DNA of 41,736 nt from Ferroacidibacillus organovorans (lineage in GTDB: Bacteria > Bacillota > Bacilli > Alicyclobacillales > SLC66). The DNA is taken from the NCBI RefSeq assembly GCF_001642725.1, contig NZ_LSUQ01000022.1, forward strand, positions 1-41,736. Reading direction: 5' to 3'. The position numbers were made by a program. Of the stretch, positions 18,001 to 27,000 are shown piece after piece. How positions within the stretch are numbered: the first letter of the stretch is position 1; each line of letters starts with the position of its first letter.

Positions 18001-21000
18001 ACCCTTGCGCGTGAAAAGGTGGCGCTGAAGCGATGTGTCGCAGAGTACGCAAAGGAGATGTCGACGACGGATTCATCTTCACATGATAAGGAGCTGGAGG
18101 AACGCCTGCGCGGACGGGCGGTTACGCTCGGCGATGCGCTAACCGTGCTTCCGGCTGACTGGATCAAAGCGAAACTGCGCACATGGATTCACAGCGTCAT
18201 TCTTCACGGACGTGAGGATCTTGAGATTGTGTTGTGTCCTGATCTGACGATGGTTTCTGATGCAATGGATCAATCCATTGGAGGATTTTTAGAGTATGGT
18301 GTCGAATGAATAAGATTATTGTAGGTTGACGGTTTTTTGTGAGGGATCTAGGGATGGCCAATTCGGTAATTAAAAATTACTCGGACGACATTCGAACTGA
18401 GATTTATCGAGTGACGAATGAGCTACTGGAGCACCTGCACCTGTATTATCAGCCATTTCCTGAATTTGATGCTGTCCGATTTCCGGCAACGGCGCTGACG
18501 ACCGCGACGGAAGGCTTTTTTTTACCGATGATGCTACTAAAAAAGATGGTTGTTATTCCTGTGTGGATTTTTACGATTGATGACGTGATTGATCGTAAAT
18601 TGTTGTCGGATGAAGAATTGGATGCTCGACTGAAAAGTTATGAATGGATCATCACGCAGGGGCTGGATGCGTCTGACGTGTATGGTCGCGTGTTGAAGGA
18701 TCTTTATGACCAGCTAAAAGAGAGGCCGCTTTTTCACGCGTTGCGAGAAGTGTGGGAAGAAGCCTATTTTCGAATGATCCGTGGGATGCTTCTTGAAGCG
18801 CGTGAAACCGTTCGAGTCCCATCGTATGATGAATATCTCGAACACGGATCGTACAGCATTGGCGTTCCGCTCTATGTCGTTTCGACGTGGATTCTCGGTT
18901 CTTATGAAGAAACATTAACGCATCTAGAAGTCCTAAAAAAGCTGATGATGCTGTCGGCGAAAAGCATTCGGCTTGCCAACGACATGCGTACATACGAAAA
19001 AGAGAAAATGGAAAAGAACCTAAACGCGCTTGTGATCATGGAGAATACGTACGAGTCAGAAGGCTACGCGCCTGACGCGGCGAAAGCGTTGGCGTCTGCA
19101 TTTGTACGGGAAGAGTTGGAGCGCTATCGCACGCAGTTTCTTGAATTGGTTGATGAATCGGTACTGCCAATCAGAACGCTGTCAAACGTTACTCAGTTTT
19201 CGCTGTCGTTTTATGATGAGCATGATTTTCATACCGTTGATGCGGGGGAGATCCACCATGTTTGAAAACGCGGGTGAAGACGATGCTTCAAAAACGGATG
19301 TGAAGCGCAGAGCGCGTGACTTGGTCGAGCGATTGCAGGGCGGCGCGATGGGATCGATCGCTTATGACACTTCGTGGGTGGCGCGCTTAAAAAATCGGGA
19401 TGGTTCTCCGAAATTCCCGACTACGATCGCCTGGCTGCGCGCGCATCAACACGCGGACGGAAGTTTTGGCGCGCGCGATGAAACGTTGCATGACCGGCTG
19501 ATTTCTACGCTCGCGAGCGTTAATGCACTGACGACGTTGCACGATGAAACGGATAGCGAGCGCATCTCTCGCGCACTTGACTATGTGGCGCGAAACGGTG
19601 GTCGTCTGCGCGCGGATGACGCTGAAACGATTGGTTTTGAGTTGCTTTTTCCTTCGCTACTCGAAGAGGCAAAAGGCTATGGATATCGACTGCCTTTTGA
19701 ATCCTTCGGATGGGTTGAAGAACTGGGGAAAAGAAAGTTGAGCGCAGTTCCCGCGTCGTGGATCTACGAAGCGGAGTCTCCACTTATCCACAGCATCGAG
19801 TTTCTCGGAAAAACAGCACAGATTGATCGCATGGCGCAACTCGTTTCGGTCAACGGATCGATCGGAAACTCTCCATCCGCCTCGGCATTTGTCTATGGGC
19901 AAACGGACGACCCCCGACTGGAGGCGTATTTGCGTCAGATTGTAGAGACGTCTGAGGATGGCGGTGTCTGCAATGTTCAACCGTTTGAAATTTTCGAAAC
20001 GGCGTGGGTGTACTTCAATCTACAGTTGGCTGGAATCACGGTTGAGGGAATGCAAAAAGGATTGCATGAGATTGAGCTGTCATTCAGGCCGCAGGGTGTC
20101 GGGATTTCCCGCAATGGCCTAATGCCAGACGCGGATGACAGTGCACTCGCCGTCAATGTGCTAGCTCGCGCTGGACGCCGAATGTCACTCCAGTTTTTGG
20201 ATTTTTATCAAGCGGAACGCGGATTTTTATGTTTTCCGTATGAGCGCAACCCTTCGATTTCAACCAATATCCACATCCTTGACGCGCTGCGTGCGTATGA
20301 GCCGCAAGAAGTGGCGCCTCATGTGGATAAGATTCTCACGTTTTTGCGCGAGGCTCAACAGGAAAATGCGTATTGGAAAGATAAATGGCATGCCTCTCCA
20401 TTCTATACAACAGCGCATGCGATTCTGGCGCTGCGAGGATTGACTGAGTCACTGATAAAAACGGCGGTCGATTATTTAATTGAATCGCAACGGCCTGATG
20501 GTTCGTGGGGGATTTTTAGGGGTACGGCGGAAGAAACGGCGTATTGTGTACAGGCGTTGACGCTTGCGCTTCCTTATTCTGCGGATGTGGACAAGCGGCT
20601 TGCACGTGCACTTTCTTTTTTAAGTAGCGAGGGGGCAAAAAAACCTCACTCTGAACTCTGGATTGGGAAGGGGCTCTATGCGCCAACCTATGTGATTGAC
20701 GCTACGATTCTAAGCGCGCGCGCGCTCTACCAGAGATGGAGGTACTCTCATGAAAAAGGATGAAGAGTTTCAACTCCTGACGAAATCGACACAGTGGGGC
20801 GAGCTTAGCGAGATTGAAAAAGTCGTCATCATGGAAAAACGCATAGTATTTGTGCGCTGGCTCGGCATCGTTTGTGCGGCGGTGACTGTTCCCTTTTTGG
20901 GGTATCAGTGGGCTGCTTTTATGTTTGGAATCATCGGATTTGCTGCGGTCTATAATGTGATTTTTCAATTTTATATCATTGCGAAAAAGAGCGCGTGGCT

Positions 21001-24000: not shown

Positions 24001-27000
24001 TTCGCGATCGAAGAGCCTTGAAATCGGATATCAGTATCTCAAAATTGCAATGCAAGCACTTGATGACATAGCAGGGAATGAAGCGATCAAGACGCGTATT
24101 CGCATTTGGGTTAATTACGTTATCGACAAACAGCTTTCTACATTACAAGGTTACATTAAACTTGATGACGAGCTTGTAAAATAAAGATGTCGGCATGGAT
24201 CGATTTGTATCGCATAGATTTTTTATAAGTGTTGTCATTTTTAAATTGACCGTGCTAGAATAAGCATAACGATTTAGCATAACGATATACTAAATCGTTA
24301 TGCTTGATTTGAACAAAATGATGAATGGAGGGTCGTCATGAAACAAAGAATTGGAAATGTTCGGTGGGGTATTGCTTTTCTCATCGGTGTTGGAATTGTC
24401 ATTAACTATTTTGACCGAACCAATTTGTCCGTGGCTACAAAACCGCTGATGCAAGAGTATCATTTGTCCAGTGCCCAGTTTGGATGGGTACTCTCATCAT
24501 TCGCGTGGTCGTATGCTATCCTTCAAATTCCCGTAGGCGCTTTACTCGATAAGATTGGTGTCAAATGGTTGGTACGGGTAGGGACAATCATCTGGTCGCT
24601 CGCCACATTTATGACCGCGGCAGTCGGTGGAATGGGTCTAATCATTTTATCCCGCGTCTTATTGGGTGTGGCAGAGGCGCCTGCATTTCCAGGAGCGGCG
24701 AAAGCGACGGGATACTGGTTCCCACTTCGTGAGAGAGGTCTCGCGACTTCGGCGTTTGATGCGGCAGCCAAACTTTCAAATGTGATTGGGGTGCCGCTGG
24801 TGGCACTGTCTGTCACACAATGGGGATGGCGCGGCGGCTTTTACATGACAGCTATTTTGAGTCTTATGTATGCGGTTGCATACTGGATTTGGTACCGTGA
24901 CCCGTCGGAGTCCAAAACGCTAACCGATGCAGAACGTGCTTATATTGTAGAAGGCGGGGCTCAAGAGAGCGGAGAAGCACCGGGGGGCGTTGGAAAAAAT
25001 TTAGGATATCTTCTAGGACGTCGTAAGGTGTGGGGATTGACTCTCGGGTTTGCGGCATATGGATATACATTTTATTTGTTGCTTACATGGTTGCCCGGGT
25101 ACCTTGAAACGGAGATGCATATGACCGTTCTAAAATCAGGCATGTACACGATTGTCCCTTGGATCTTTGCGACCATTGCTGATATTGTTATTGGTGGGTG
25201 GTTGGTTGACTTTTTGATAAAGCGCGGAAAAAATCCCACTCGCGTGCGAAAAACGTTGCTTATTGTCGGAATGGTTTTGGGACTCGCGGTCGCTGGGGCA
25301 GGTTTTACGAAAAATCCGCAGATCGCAATCGTCTTCATCACCATTGCACTGAGTGGTCTCGCGTTTTCAGCGCCGATTGGCTGGAGCATTCCTGCGCTCA
25401 TCGCGCCAAAAGGAACGGTTGGTTTAGTGGGAAGCATCATGAACTTTTTTAACAACTTGATGGGGATTTTGGCGCCGATTATCACAGGGTATATTGCAGG
25501 CGGTACAGGCTCATTTGGACTGGGATTTTTAATCGCGGGGATCGTACTGCTGATTGGAATCCTCTGTTACCTCTTTTTACTCGGTGATTTGGAGCCGATC
25601 CAGTCACCTTACAAAGCAAACGTCTAAGAAAATGCTGAATGAAAAAATGGGAATACAAATACGCCGGGGTGTCCCGGCGTATTTGTGCGAAATAACCTGA
25701 GGTGTAAACGCGATATGGATGATAAATTTTGTGTTATCGGGTTGGATTTAGGGACAACTTCGGTCAAGACACTCACGGTGGACCAAACGGGTGTGACGCG
25801 GTTTCGAGCAGCGCGGAAAATCTCGACGAACATTGGTCCGAATGGACGCGCAGTGCAAGATCCGTTTGAGATCCGTGACGCGCTGAATTCGGTGTTCGAA
25901 TTGGCGCTTCACGCTGCGAGAAAGGATGGTCTTTTGGTGCATCGGGTTGGATTCAGCGCTGCGATGCACAGTCTGATGATTGTATCTGAAGAGGGGGAAC
26001 CGCTGACACAGGCGATGACCTGGATGGATTCGCGCGCCAAAAAACAGGCGGAATTGCTGTGGGAGTCGCTGAATGGGAAAAAAATTTATGAAGAGACGGG
26101 TACGCCCATTCACGCGATGTCTCCATTTGTAAAGTTAGTATGGCTACGAGAAACGCAACCGCAATTATTGAAAATGGGCAATCGAATCGCTTCTGTAAAA
26201 GAGTGGATCTGGCATGCGTGGTTCGACGAGTGGATGATCGATGAATCGATGGCGGGGGCGACCGGACTCTACGATGTGGAGAAACGCAGTTGGCACGAGC
26301 ATGCGCTCACTCGCATTGGTGTCAACCCGGCACAACTCTCTCGCATCGTTCCTACGTCGTATCGACAGGCTGGTTGTCGTGAGACGAGGCTGCAGTTGGC
26401 AGGGTTGACTGCGGACACTCTGTTTTCGATTGGCAGCACAGATGGAGTTCTTGCGAATTTGGCGCTTGGTGTGACCGATTCGTCAAAAATGGTATTCACG
26501 GTCGGGACAAGTATGGCTGTGCGTTCAGGGGCAAAGAGAAAAGTCACCAATCCTAGCCTTCGTCCATTCTGCTATCGATTAGATGATCAACGTTTTGTCA
26601 TCGGGGCTCCGAGCAATAGCGGAGGTGTGATCCTAGAATGGCTGATGAACATGTTATACGGCGATGATCGCGCGGAAAATGTAGATGAAACGCTGGCCGT
26701 CCTCATTCGTGACGCGGGAAACGTAGAGCTTCAAAGCCTCTACTGCTTGCCTTATGCGGCGGGAGAGCGGGCGCCGCTCTGGGATGAGGAGGCAAAGGCG
26801 TCGTTTATTGGGCTTCATCTTAAACATCAAAAGATTCACTTGGTGAGAGCGGCAATTGAGGGGATGATTTATAACGCCAAGTGGTTGATTGACAACTTGT
26901 CTGCGAGCACGGGGAACCCAGAGCAGGTGTATCTCTCGGGGAAACTGTTTGATGAACTGTGGATATGTCAATTGTGCGCGAATGTATTCGGAGTTCCTGT

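What a model noticed while it worked through the whole genome (the two positions that open the first line are those of the whole stretch)
18354..24184. Labdane-type diterpene gene cluster with an embedded c-di-GMP enzyme, carried as cargo of a spoVR-intervening element
C22:18354-24184 encodes a class I terpene synthase (g01750; DDVID and NDMRTYEKE metal motifs), an overlapping class II diterpene cyclase (g01751; DADD motif, two QW repeats), a GGDEF + HD-GYP membrane protein (g01752) and a geranylgeranyl-diphosphate-type prenyl synthase (g01753). Together they should make a bicyclic prenyl diphosphate of the halimadienyl/copalyl kind from GGPP and turn it into a labdane-related diterpene. Such clusters are almost unknown in Bacillota; this one lies inside the 12.8-kb element E that interrupts spoVR, next to its serine recombinase, and its nearest relatives are in Chloroflexota and Sulfobacillia, which points to lateral acquisition.
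Evidence so far: Pfam families Terpene_syn_C_2/Terpene_synth_C, Prenyltrans/SQHop_cyclase_C, GGDEF+HD, polyprenyl_synt. Motifs read from the sequences. Swiss-Prot: g01751 34.6% over 494 aa to M. tuberculosis Rv3377c, 28-31% to copalyl diphosphate synthases; g01753 29-34% to archaeal GGPP and short-chain prenyl synthases. PDB: best hits of g01750 are Sat1646 (7e4n, E 3e-14) and Stt4548 (7e4m, E 2e-7). relatives.tsv: PF03936 in 4 and PF19086 in 20 of 27,166 Bacillota genomes, as floors. Top GTDB hits of g01750/g01751: Sulfobacillia RBS10-35 (31-42%) and Chloroflexota including Nitrolancea (27-45%), where UniRef entries I4EKS1 and I4EKS2 have consecutive accessions. The congener G046 keeps the cluster at 84-88% [...]
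(Added by a program. Inside this text positions count along the whole contig: contig position 1 is position 1 of the stretch shown here. "Call 12" and the like, gene names such as g00115 and contig names such as C1 are that model's own, and its searches are not shown. The text may have been shortened before it was handed on; [...] marks where a part breaks off. The agent that wrote the report below was given it as the finding of a first reader that could run no searches.)

Follow-up and report, generated by a model that had tools for sequence, protein, structure and literature searches.

The report
Diterpene operon with its own membrane sensor
A spore-forming bacterium carries, inside a removable DNA element that splits a sporulation gene, a four-gene operon that should make a two-ring diterpene lipid, and its membrane signalling protein is a conserved partner of such terpene enzymes in several bacterial phyla.

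Summary
Window 18354-24184 holds four tightly packed + strand genes: a class I terpene synthase, a class II DxDD cyclase of the Rv3377c family, a membrane GGDEF+HD-GYP protein and a GGPP-type prenyl synthase. They lie with a large serine recombinase in a 12,828-bp element flanked by a 14-bp direct repeat inside spoVR. A congener keeps all four genes under purifying selection (dN/dS 0.04-0.12). No class II relative was found in 400 other genomes of the phylum.

The c-di-GMP gene is not a stray. In 80 loci fetched with the class II cyclase, 63 have a membrane signalling gene right after the cyclase or its partner enzyme; that is 63 of the 73 loci with enough downstream sequence. There were 57 histidine kinases, 3 GGDEF+HD-GYP proteins, 2 chemoreceptors and 1 sensor gene cut by the contig end. 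The window's N-terminal six-helix sensor domain recurs only beside such cyclases, with either c-di-GMP or kinase outputs.

Most likely the operon makes a halimane/labdane-type diterpene that the sensor reads in the membrane. This is inferred and not shown. Ten full-text searches of the held library and passages of two papers on bacterial terpene synthases turned up no report of the pairing.

The parts
14967..15620 (+). middle piece of spoVR (ORF 14995-15819 reads on into the element); ends in the left copy of the repeat core
   Evidence: Pfam SpoVR E 1.2e-73, profile 63-270. Relatives' SpoVR matches only residues 1-210 of this ORF.
15607..15620 (.). left copy of the 14-bp direct repeat (attL core) in the NEGWA codons
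   Evidence: family D15, spacing 12,828 bp. Contigs of a relative in run X7 diverge from the window exactly behind 15620 (table 7).
15756..16274 (-). DinB-family gene at the left end of the element
   Evidence: Pfam DinB E 1.5e-14. Only its first 76 of 173 residues are kept in G001.
16319..16549 (-). 76-aa ORF divergent from the recombinase gene, function unknown
   Evidence: It lies in the stretch that is 98% identical to G001.
16789..18309 (+). large serine recombinase of the element
   Evidence: Pfam Resolvase E 3.9e-43, Recombinase E 4.5e-28, Zn_ribbon_recom E 1.5e-13. Orthologues of 48-62% identity lie beside truncated spoVR in G012, G006, G002 and G010.
18354..19265 (+). class I (alpha-fold) diterpene synthase
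   Evidence: Pfam; motifs DDVID and NDMRTYEKE. A profile of 16 homologues hits Stt4548 at E 1e-27 and Sat1646 at E 6.4e-27, far above the other solved TSs. dN/dS 0.10.
19258..20763 (+). class II (beta-gamma) diterpene cyclase, Rv3377c family
   Evidence: PDB 6vpt E 1e-68. D291, D293 and D294 of the DxDD motif are invariant in 21 homologues. dN/dS 0.12.
20750..23068 (+). membrane sensor protein: six-helix TM domain (about residues 20-190), long helix, GAF-like domain, GGDEF, HD-GYP
   Evidence: Pfam GGDEF and HD_5; DUF4118 sub-threshold, E 0.006. Atlas structure matches to 6TM_PilS and DUF4118 kinases, TM 0.65-0.81. AF2 model shows helices 21-229, TM part pLDDT 70-84; weak GAF fold matches. dN/dS 0.054.
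23072..24184 (+). trans-prenyl diphosphate synthase, GGPP-synthase-like
   Evidence: Pfam E 1.9e-55. Best PDB hit 1wy0, a GGPP synthetase, E 8.5e-39. NCBIfam IdsB and GGPP_syn models score 188 bits, below their cut-offs. dN/dS 0.044.
24262..24305 (.). 20+20-nt inverted repeat between the terpene operon and the sugar genes
   Evidence: I6, 95% complementary. A sigma-70-like site at 24232-24261 lies just before it. Its role as terminator or LacI operator is inferred.
24338..28199 (.). rest of the cargo: MFS transporter 24338-25627 (+), FGGY sugar kinase 25685-27196 (+), LacI-family regulator 27150-28199 (-)
   Evidence: Pfam; all three are kept in G001.
28435..28448 (.). right copy of the 14-bp direct repeat (attR core)
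   Evidence: D15. Metagenome contigs bridge it in the same context (X6 record 14, X7 record 24).
28435..29073 (+). last piece of spoVR
   Evidence: Pfam SpoVR profile 260-405 E 1.8e-49 and SpoVR_C. The in-silico join is open to its stop.

Best explanation
Shown: a 12,828-bp element that splits spoVR carries a large serine recombinase and a tightly packed operon of class I terpene synthase, class II cyclase, membrane GGDEF+HD-GYP protein and prenyl synthase. All four genes are intact and under purifying selection.

Inferred pathway: the prenyl synthase makes GGPP. The Rv3377c-family cyclase protonates it through DADD and closes two rings, giving a halimadienyl/tuberculosinyl-type (or copalyl-type) diphosphate. 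The class I enzyme ionises the diphosphate and releases a hydrocarbon or alcohol diterpene that stays in the membrane.

Inferred coupling: the next gene's six-helix, PilS/DUF4118-like intramembrane domain perceives that lipid, or the change it makes in the bilayer. Through the GAF linker it shifts the balance between its diguanylate cyclase (GGDEF) and phosphodiesterase (HD-GYP) halves. The output feeds the cell's c-di-GMP network, which comprises 10 GGDEF genes, 1 PilZ gene and 8 c-di-GMP-I riboswitches.

The element would be cut out of the mother-cell chromosome at the repeat during sporulation to restore spoVR, as other sporulation-gene-intervening elements are.

The confidence given is for the whole chain including the sensing step. 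The gene content, the element and the conservation alone I hold at about 0.9.
For: Enzymes and motifs.

Operon packing: overlaps of 8 and 14 nt and a 3-nt gap.

Selection: dN/dS 0.04-0.12, with dS 0.84-1.34 like the flanking genes.

Coupling, point 1. Full-length relatives of the sensor protein (31-36% over 760-780 aa) follow class II + class I genes in L008, L010 (Thermobaculum MAG) and L012 (Rubrobacter MAG). Its N-terminus follows them in L018 (Dormiibacterota), where the contig end cuts it.

Coupling, point 2. The same N-terminal domain is joined to a histidine kinase instead in L020 (E 1e-36) and L026 (E 9e-15), again beside the cyclase. In about 1.2 Mb of loci, all 6 hits of this domain lie next to the cyclase.

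Coupling, point 3. Only 15 proteins in the 5.8-billion-protein set matched residues 1-380. All have GGDEF+HD-GYP. Of the 13 outside the genus, 6 share a longest-contig length with TS and/or cyclase homologues: 7237, 9843, 14312, 17505, 60227 and 115116. This link is indirect.

Coupling, point 4. Of 80 cyclase loci, 63 have a signalling gene directly after the cyclase or its partner. These are 54 kinases with another TM domain (Pfam HisKA/HATPase_c in 50 of them), 6 with the window's domain, 2 chemoreceptors and 1 GAF-kinase. Seven of the other 17 loci end at a contig edge.

Coupling, point 5. Partner enzyme and sensor type sort cleanly: Rv3378c-like with kinase domain in 50 loci; class I TS with the window's domain in 4 (plus L012); crosswise 0 and 0.

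Coupling, point 6. The outputs are c-di-GMP turnover, single-domain receivers and chemotaxis signalling. None is DNA-binding, so these read as a readout and not as cluster regulators.

Coupling, point 7. Two database proteins fuse a kinase core to an intact cyclase.

Element. A spoVR-intervening element (vrin) is on record (PMC4191935, passages).
Against: No product, binding or c-di-GMP effect has been measured; everything about coupling is gene neighbourhood. The 63 loci are far from independent. On the cyclase tree the kinase-linked loci are essentially one Anaerolineae clade and the window's type is another clade, so there may be only four or five separate associations. The six Actinomycetota loci and two archaeal loci have no sensor. 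The two sensor TM domains are unrelated by profile comparison, and the chemoreceptors' N-termini matched neither. Adjacency would equally fit a sensor that acts upstream of the enzymes. The structure model of the sensor part is mediocre (mean pLDDT 60.9) and found no solved TM relative. The prenyl synthase reaches no NCBIfam cut-off, so C20 is inferred from the aromatic residue five positions before DDIQD (a recalled rule) and from the best hits. No excised form was seen in metagenome contigs. No RNA data were available.
Confidence: 0.5

Rival explanations
1. The sensor acts upstream. It perceives an outside or envelope cue such as acid or membrane stress, and through c-di-GMP (or phosphorelay in the kinase-linked loci) switches the terpene enzymes or their genes on. 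The terpenoid is then a protective membrane lipid or an exported product and not the sensor's ligand.
For: Cluster-situated regulators are common (general knowledge). The host lacks a squalene-hopene cyclase (the only PF13243 hit is this cyclase), so a polycyclic terpenoid could serve the membrane. Near-identical DNA occurs in mine-drainage, tailings and sediment metagenomes. The neighbourhood data fit this as well.
Against: No output in any locus is a DNA-binding regulator. The outputs are GGDEF/HD-GYP, stand-alone receivers of about 120 aa and chemoreceptors, and a chemoreceptor cannot regulate an enzyme. Sensor type tracks the type of partner enzyme, and so the kind of product. That is expected for a ligand and not for a shared outside cue.
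Confidence: 0.25
2. This is an ordinary natural-product cluster. The three enzymes make a secreted labdane-related diterpene, and the GGDEF+HD-GYP gene is a passenger with no functional tie.
For: Class II + class I + GGPP synthase is the standard trio. The actinomycete loci L017, L025, L032, L039, L040 and L058 show it with P450 or NRPS-type genes and no sensor.
Against: The element has no tailoring genes. The sensor gene overlaps the cyclase gene by 14 nt and sits between cyclase and prenyl synthase. It has dN/dS 0.054, among the lowest in the operon. Its relatives recur beside cyclases in at least four other phyla.
Confidence: 0.1
3. The enzymes work on something other than the GGPP-to-diterpene route, for instance a C25 or C15 chain, or a product that is transferred to a nucleoside or another acceptor as in the Rv3378c-linked loci.
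For: The prenyl synthase is below every NCBIfam cut-off, and its best partial match is an encapsulin-cargo polyprenyl transferase. In L026 a UbiA prenyltransferase replaces the class I enzyme. Product cannot be read from sequence (PMC9814783, sections 7-10).
Against: The best solved relatives are a GGPP synthetase, a GGPP-using cyclase and two copalyl-diphosphate-using class I enzymes (PMC9814573 abstract). No Rv3378c-like gene is in the element.
Confidence: 0.1

Closest known systems
Mycobacterium tuberculosis Rv3377c (halimadienyl/tuberculosinyl diphosphate synthase), with Rv3378c and the GGPP synthase IdsB
   Same: The cyclase is the window enzyme's best solved relative (6vpt, E 1e-68, aligned over residues 25-490). 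It has the same Tyr at the proposed base position and a small residue at the A475 position. The NCBIfam IdsB model is among the best partial hits of the window's prenyl synthase.
   Different: The partner here is a canonical class I alpha-fold synthase and not the Rv3378c transferase. The motif reads DADD, where the 6vpt sequence has DCDT in the alignment. The window's cyclase nests in a clade whose loci carry class I synthases. Here a membrane signalling gene is part of the operon.
Sat1646 / Stt4548, actinomycete class I pimaradiene synthases that use copalyl diphosphate
   Same: They are the best solved relatives of the class I enzyme, by single sequence (E 3e-14) and by family profile (E 1e-27 and 6e-27). 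They act on a bicyclic diphosphate made by a class II partner (PMC9814573, abstract).
   Different: They are distant: the match is local and covers residues 39-237. In the window's family only the first and last Asp of the DDxxD site are invariant. The substrate and product here are unknown.
Sporulation-gene-intervening elements: skin in sigK, SPbeta in spsM, gin in gerE, vrin in spoVR of Geobacillus thermoglucosidasius
   Same: The element interrupts a mother-cell sporulation gene, has a large serine recombinase at one end and a short direct repeat at both junctions, and leaves an open frame when removed (PMC4191935 passages; PMC5595907 abstract).
   Different: I recognised no phage genes in it; the cargo is metabolic and signalling. 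In this genome spoVR is split twice, by two elements that each carry a recombinase. Excision has not been observed.
PilS-type six-helix and DUF4118 (KdpD-type) membrane sensor modules of histidine kinases
   Same: The N-terminal domain superposes on such modules in predicted structures, TM 0.65-0.81 normalised by the query. It gives sub-threshold Pfam hits to DUF4118 (E 0.006) and 6TM_PilS (E 0.3). From recall, the PilS module senses a partner inside the membrane, which is a precedent for intramembrane sensing.
   Different: The domain is below every curated cut-off, so it is not a filed member. It is joined to GAF+GGDEF+HD-GYP. This subfamily was found only beside terpene cyclases.

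Membership tests
Labdane-related (class II then class I) diterpenoid gene cluster | Class II beta-gamma cyclase with a DxDD general acid | tested here: met
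   DADD read. D291, D293 and D294 are invariant in 21 homologues. Solved diterpene cyclases are the best hits.
Labdane-related (class II then class I) diterpenoid gene cluster | Class I alpha-fold synthase with DDxxD and NSE/DTE metal sites | tested here: met
   DDVID and NDMRTYEKE. N209, D210 and E217 are invariant and T213 nearly invariant. Only the first and last Asp of the first motif are invariant in the family.
Labdane-related (class II then class I) diterpenoid gene cluster | Dedicated GGPP supply | tested here: inconclusive
   The polyprenyl_synt gene is in the operon and its best solved hit is a GGPP synthetase. No NCBIfam equivalog cut-off is reached. The second motif is DDVVG, as in 3nf2 and L058. 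Chain length was not measured.
Labdane-related (class II then class I) diterpenoid gene cluster | A bicyclic diphosphate intermediate and a diterpene product | not testable with these tools
   This needs enzyme assays.
Rv3377c family of class II cyclases (halimane-forming) | Closest to Rv3377c among characterised cyclases | tested here: met
   6vpt scores E 1e-68, against E 2.9e-45 for 5bp8 (ent-copalyl diphosphate synthase) and E 5.4e-31 for 7xkx (Tpn2) (PDB codes assigned in PMC9814783).
Rv3377c family of class II cyclases (halimane-forming) | Tyr at the Y479 position and a non-acidic small residue at the A475 position | tested here: met
   The alignment places Gly and Tyr of the W-I-G-K-G-L-Y stretch opposite A475 and Y479. 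The family frequencies are Tyr 92.1% and Gly 58.7% (PMC9814783 section 10). The same paper shows that these residues do not by themselves fix the product.
Sporulation-gene-intervening element | Splits a sporulation gene; direct repeat at both ends; removal restores the frame | tested here: met
   SpoVR of other genera in the family is one frame of 483-549 aa.
Sporulation-gene-intervening element | Own site-specific recombinase | tested here: met
   Large serine recombinase at 16789-18309. Orthologues lie beside truncated spoVR in four relatives.
Sporulation-gene-intervening element | Excision in the mother cell during sporulation | not testable with these tools
   No contig joins 15620 to 28435 in four metagenome runs. 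Contigs drop rare forms, so this says nothing either way.
Bifunctional GGDEF + HD-GYP c-di-GMP enzymes | Intact GG(D/E)EF active site | tested here: met
   RFGGDEF; Pfam match covers 1-160 of 161 profile positions. By my reading, no RxxD site lies five residues upstream.
Bifunctional GGDEF + HD-GYP c-di-GMP enzymes | HD and GYP signatures | tested here: met
   HDVGK and HHEWMNGKGYP. H690, H691, G696, G698 and P700 are invariant in 18 homologues, and H637 and Y699 are nearly so.
DUF4118 / 6TM_PilS membrane sensor domains | Score above the Pfam cut-off | tested here: not met
   DUF4118 scores 16.8 bits against a 28.4 cut-off; 6TM_PilS scores 11.2 against 27. The likeness is structural only.

The most novel reading that the evidence does not exclude
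Bacterial class II diterpene cyclases of the Rv3377c family are the synthesis half of widespread lipid-signalling modules. Each cyclase, with its partner enzyme, makes a membrane terpenoid. A dedicated intramembrane sensor encoded in the same operon reads it and passes it on as c-di-GMP turnover (this window, Thermobaculum, Rubrobacter), phosphorelay (most Anaerolineae) or chemotaxis signalling. On this reading the relatives of the M. tuberculosis terpene-nucleoside genes in environmental bacteria would be signal-making enzymes. Here the whole module travels as cargo of a sporulation-excised element.
Probability: 0.4. Interest if true: 0.85.

Novelty: new variant of a known kind. Interest (0 to 1): 0.72.

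Why it matters
Bacterial diterpenoids are mostly treated as antibiotics, plant hormones or virulence lipids. The Rv3377c family is known almost only from the tuberculosis antacid lipid. Here its members are encoded with a membrane sensor in 63 of 73 informative loci, and the sensor's output changes from lineage to lineage. That points to a self-made terpenoid acting as a membrane signal, a role hardly documented in bacteria. The window offers a compact test case: four genes, a cultivable congener, and a host with a c-di-GMP riboswitch network that could serve as a read-out. It also shows that sporulation-gene-intervening elements can carry a complete metabolic-plus-signalling module and not only phage remnants. 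If the sensor idea fails, what remains is a rare but ordinary diterpene cluster in Bacillota.

Tried and rejected
- The genome-contig scan with the TS alignment A1 confirmed none of 101 pattern matches. I used the allowed second scan with the cyclase alignment.
- The two metagenome loci with 35-36% TS relatives (L005, L006) have no class II gene nearby. Distant TS relatives therefore stand outside such clusters.
- I asked whether the ~300-aa gene upstream of the Anaerolineae cyclases is a hidden class I TS. hhalign against A1 gave probability 0.5%. It is an Rv3378c homologue, E 1.7e-108.
- I asked whether the Anaerolineae kinases share the window's sensor domain. hhalign A5 against A3 gave probability 1%, and the domain HMM did not hit them. 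There are two separate TM domain families. Pfam MASE6 hits to the kinase and chemoreceptor N-termini are sub-threshold (E 0.0012-0.0015).
- The structure of residues 1-380 (7-row alignment) has mean pLDDT 60.9. Foldseek against PDB found nothing at E<=0.001, only weak GAF matches.
- Rfam found no family at gathering score anywhere in the window.
- The promoter and terminator scan found fewer sites than shuffles (9 against a mean of 14.3; 10 against 14.1), so no operon boundary can be read from it.
- Sequencing runs: no RNA holder is listed. No contig shows the excised junction. A joint 22932 to 28262 has only 29 letters on one side, so I treated it as foreign or repeat.
- The '2 TGA' flagged inside G001's recombinase are a shorter C-terminus and not breaks.
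- In one search I ran the last spoVR piece in the wrong frame, so that row is void.
- Literature: all ten searches are. None listed a paper linking diterpene cyclases to kinases, c-di-GMP enzymes or chemoreceptors. [quoted passage not shown] Its five readable supplement files hold no 'histidine kinase', 'GGDEF' or 'response regulator'; one picture-only file could not be read.

Full report
**1. What is there**

Four + strand genes fill window 18354-24184:
- Class I terpene synthase, 18354-19265 (Terpene_syn_C_2 E 6.6e-19; DDVID and NDMRTYEKE).
- Class II cyclase, 19258-20763 (squalene-hopene-cyclase-type repeats; DADD; QHADGSFG and QRPDGSWG).
- A 772-aa protein, 20750-23068, with GGDEF (E 9e-45; RFGGDEF) and HD-GYP (HD_5 E 1e-38; HDVGK, HHEWMNGKGYP).
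- Polyprenyl synthase, 23072-24184 (E 1.9e-55; DDIQD, DDVVG).

Successive genes overlap by 8 and 14 nt or are 3 nt apart, so this is one operon. It starts 45 nt after the stop of a large serine recombinase gene (16789-18309). An MFS transporter, an FGGY kinase and a LacI regulator complete the cargo.

**2. The element**

SpoVR homology stops at residue about 210 of the ORF 14995-15819 and resumes in the ORF 28342-29073. A direct repeat with a 14-base identical core lies at 15607-15620 and 28435-28448, 12,828 bp apart, in the NEGWA codons. Joining the pieces at the core gives one frame with a single terminal stop.

In other genera of the family SpoVR is one frame of 483-549 aa. G002, G006, G010 and G012 show truncated frames, with orthologues of this recombinase (48-62% identity) nearby. 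The terpene synthase was found in none of them. The recombinase/spoVR-site pair is therefore older and wider than this cargo.

spoVR-intervening elements are on record: vrin in Geobacillus thermoglucosidasius (PMC4191935, passages).

Near-identical copies of the cluster occur in contigs of four metagenome runs from three studies (sediment, an unlabelled metagenome, mine drainage). Contigs bridge the right junction in the same context. No contig shows the excised form, which contigs would rarely show.

**3. Age and function**

The congener G001 has the whole element at the same site. Between the two species dN/dS is 0.10 (TS), 0.12 (cyclase), 0.054 (sensor protein) and 0.044 (prenyl synthase). 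dS is 0.84-1.34, the same as for flanking chromosomal genes (0.86-1.02). The element was therefore present before the species split, and all four genes are maintained.

**4. The enzymes**

*Cyclase.* Its best solved relative is 6vpt, E 1e-68. That entry is Rv3377c, the halimadienyl/tuberculosinyl diphosphate synthase (PMC9814783). The alignment puts Gly and Tyr opposite A475 and Y479. The paper reports that in the Rv3377c family Tyr is 92.1% conserved and Gly is the commonest residue at the other site, and reads this as mostly halimane-forming. It also shows that these residues do not fix the product.

*Class I enzyme.* It and its family profile hit Stt4548 and Sat1646 first, at E 1e-27 and 6e-27. 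The next hit is at E 4e-21 and all others are at E 6e-10 or weaker. Both use copalyl diphosphate (PMC9814573, abstract).

*Prenyl synthase.* Its best solved relative is a GGPP synthetase (1wy0, E 8.5e-39). Its DDVVG-IWG motif recurs in 3nf2, in a Streptomyces diterpene locus and in the congener, so it is a subfamily trait and not damage. It reaches no NCBIfam cut-off.

*Host background.* The genome has two other polyprenyl synthases and no squalene-hopene cyclase.

**5. Rarity**

- The TS was found in 2 of 61 related genomes, G000 and its congener.
- The cyclase family at E<=1e-30 was found in 1 of 401 genomes drawn evenly from the phylum, G000 itself.
- The word-indexed search of 5.8 billion proteins gave 17 TS relatives.
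- The exhaustive profile search gave 942 representative clusters at E<=0.001, but only 8 at E<1e-80.

**6. The signalling gene is part of the system**

I fetched 80 loci with the cyclase alignment. Most are Chloroflexota.

*The window's sensor type.* Full-length relatives of the window's 772-aa protein follow cyclase + class I synthase in L008, L010 and L012, and its N-terminus follows them in L018. An HMM of its N-terminal domain hit only 6 of the 80 fetched loci, always next to the cyclase. Three of these were seeds of the HMM. L018, L020 and L026 were found independently. In L020 and L026 the domain is joined to HisKA+HATPase_c instead of GGDEF+HD-GYP.

*Database relatives.* Searching residues 1-380 returned 15 proteins, all with GGDEF+HD-GYP. 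Of the 13 outside the genus, 6 share a longest-contig length with TS and/or cyclase relatives, and four of those lengths are shared by all three. This is an indirect sign of co-location.

*Other signalling neighbours.* In L024 and L038 a chemoreceptor follows the pair. In 54 loci a protein with a different TM domain starts within about 300 nt of the cyclase's end (33 of these were HMM seeds). Pfam found HisKA and/or HATPase_c in 50 of them, often followed by a 120-aa receiver. L077 has a GAF-kinase-receiver.

*Totals.* 63 of 80 loci have a signalling neighbour. Of the other 17, 7 contigs end within about 0.4 kb; 6 are Actinomycetota with classical clusters; 2 are archaeal; L035 has none; and L057 has a LuxR-type response regulator two genes on.

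*Partner enzymes.* The ~300-aa gene upstream in the kinase-linked loci is an Rv3378c homologue (E 1.7e-108). Partner and sensor type sort without exception among 79 loci (L012 left out for a partial cyclase): Rv3378c-like with the kinase domain in 50 loci, class I TS with the window's domain in 4, and neither crosswise combination in any.

*Fusions.* Two database proteins fuse a kinase core to an intact cyclase.

**7. Independence**

On a quick maximum-likelihood tree of 100 cyclases, the kinase-linked loci form essentially one clade (60 rows, SH-aLRT 100), with the Pseudonocardiaceae loci nested inside. The window and its congener sit in a 13-row clade (100) with 11 unnamed metagenome proteins. 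That clade lies inside a 27-row clade (98) in which every one of the nine locus-derived rows except L011, whose contig ends just after the cyclase, carries a class I synthase; 6 of the 17 metagenome rows share a contig length with a TS homologue. The 63 loci therefore stand for a handful of associations and not 63. What argues for function is that the associations involve different sensor domains and different outputs.

**8. The sensor domain**

- AF2 on a 7-row alignment gives six helices between residues 21 and about 190, a long helix to 229, and then an alpha/beta domain. TM blocks have pLDDT 70-84 and the rest is poor.
- Foldseek finds only weak GAF matches for the latter domain.
- The Atlas's own model of this protein superposes on 6TM_PilS and DUF4118 kinase modules (TM 0.65-0.81 by query).
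- Pfam hits are sub-threshold.
- Eighteen homologues keep polar residues in the helices invariant: E29, R36, N69, D94, S110, R126 and D181.
- The genome has 10 GGDEF genes, one PilZ gene and eight c-di-GMP-I riboswitches.

**9. Reading**

The enzymes, the element and conservation are shown. The GGPP to bicyclic diphosphate to diterpene route is inferred from family membership. That the sensor reads the lipid is inferred from neighbourhood, from domain swapping and from the kind of outputs. The main rival is that the sensor acts upstream of the enzymes.

**10. Literature**

Ten searches listed no paper linking diterpene cyclases with kinases, c-di-GMP enzymes or chemoreceptors. The neighbourhood analysis in PMC9814783 (section 10 read in full; supplements searched, one unreadable) does not mention them. 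Subscription journals are outside the library.

Noticed in passing
window 7813-8022, 7991-14967, 8019-9533 (-): spoVR is split three ways, not two. Its N-terminus (ending ...FSHWSFGK) is the ORF 7813-8022. A second insertion of about 7 kb (about 7991-14967) lies between it and the middle piece. This insertion is absent from the congener and carries its own large serine recombinase (31% identical to the other), an ornithine cyclodeaminase-like gene, an APH fragment, an IndA-like gene and a PfkB kinase. A short repeat TTTGGTAA lies at both junctions.
   Followed up: partly
window 16047-16620: This stretch is 98% identical to the congener, while the rest of the element and the flanks are 80-85% identical. 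dS of the DinB part is 0.067 against about 1.0 elsewhere. That suggests recent exchange or strong DNA-level constraint. The stretch holds half of the DinB gene and a 76-aa ORF (16319-16549, -) divergent from the recombinase gene. Whether that ORF is a directionality factor was not tested.
   Followed up: partly
L014-L086 (54 loci), e.g. L016 8896-13555: Most Anaerolineae loci share the operon Rv3378c-like, Rv3377c-like, membrane histidine kinase, single-domain response regulator. Relatives of the M. tuberculosis terpene-nucleoside pair thus sit with a two-component system in environmental bacteria.
   Followed up: yes
proteins P0189 (812 aa), P0191 (844 aa): These are fusions of a histidine-kinase core (HisKA+HATPase_c, no TM sensor) with a class II cyclase that keeps DLDD. 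Whether they are true fusions or merged gene calls is not known.
   Followed up: partly
window 24232-24305: A sigma-70-like site is followed by a 20+20-nt inverted repeat (95% complementary) between the prenyl synthase and the MFS gene. It is possibly the terminator of the terpene operon and/or the operator of the LacI regulator at 27150-28199.
   Followed up: no
G012:C1 about 743142-745609; G006:C106 7056-11766; G002:C4; G010:C103: Other genera of the family have a truncated spoVR frame with an orthologous serine recombinase close by but no terpene synthase. These are probably sister elements at the same site with other cargo.
   Followed up: partly
window 15620 and 28435 (runs X7, X9): Metagenome contigs of relatives leave the window's sequence exactly at the two repeat cores and continue with SpoVR-like coding sequence that differs from the window's. 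Uninterrupted spoVR therefore exists in related organisms of the same habitats. Contigs of X5, X6 and X7 also all break at 15725 (tables 7 and 8).
   Followed up: no
G000 whole genome: The genome has no squalene-hopene cyclase; the only PF13243 hit is the diterpene cyclase. It has eight c-di-GMP-I riboswitches.
   Followed up: no
L053 8335-9828 and 10001-11488; L043 3570-7063 and 11394-13100: L053 has two class II cyclase genes in tandem. L043 has three paralogues of the kinase-type TM domain around one cyclase.
   Followed up: no
L005 677-2781: A distant TS relative (35%) lies next to a TnpB/Cas12f-like gene and not next to a class II cyclase.
   Followed up: no
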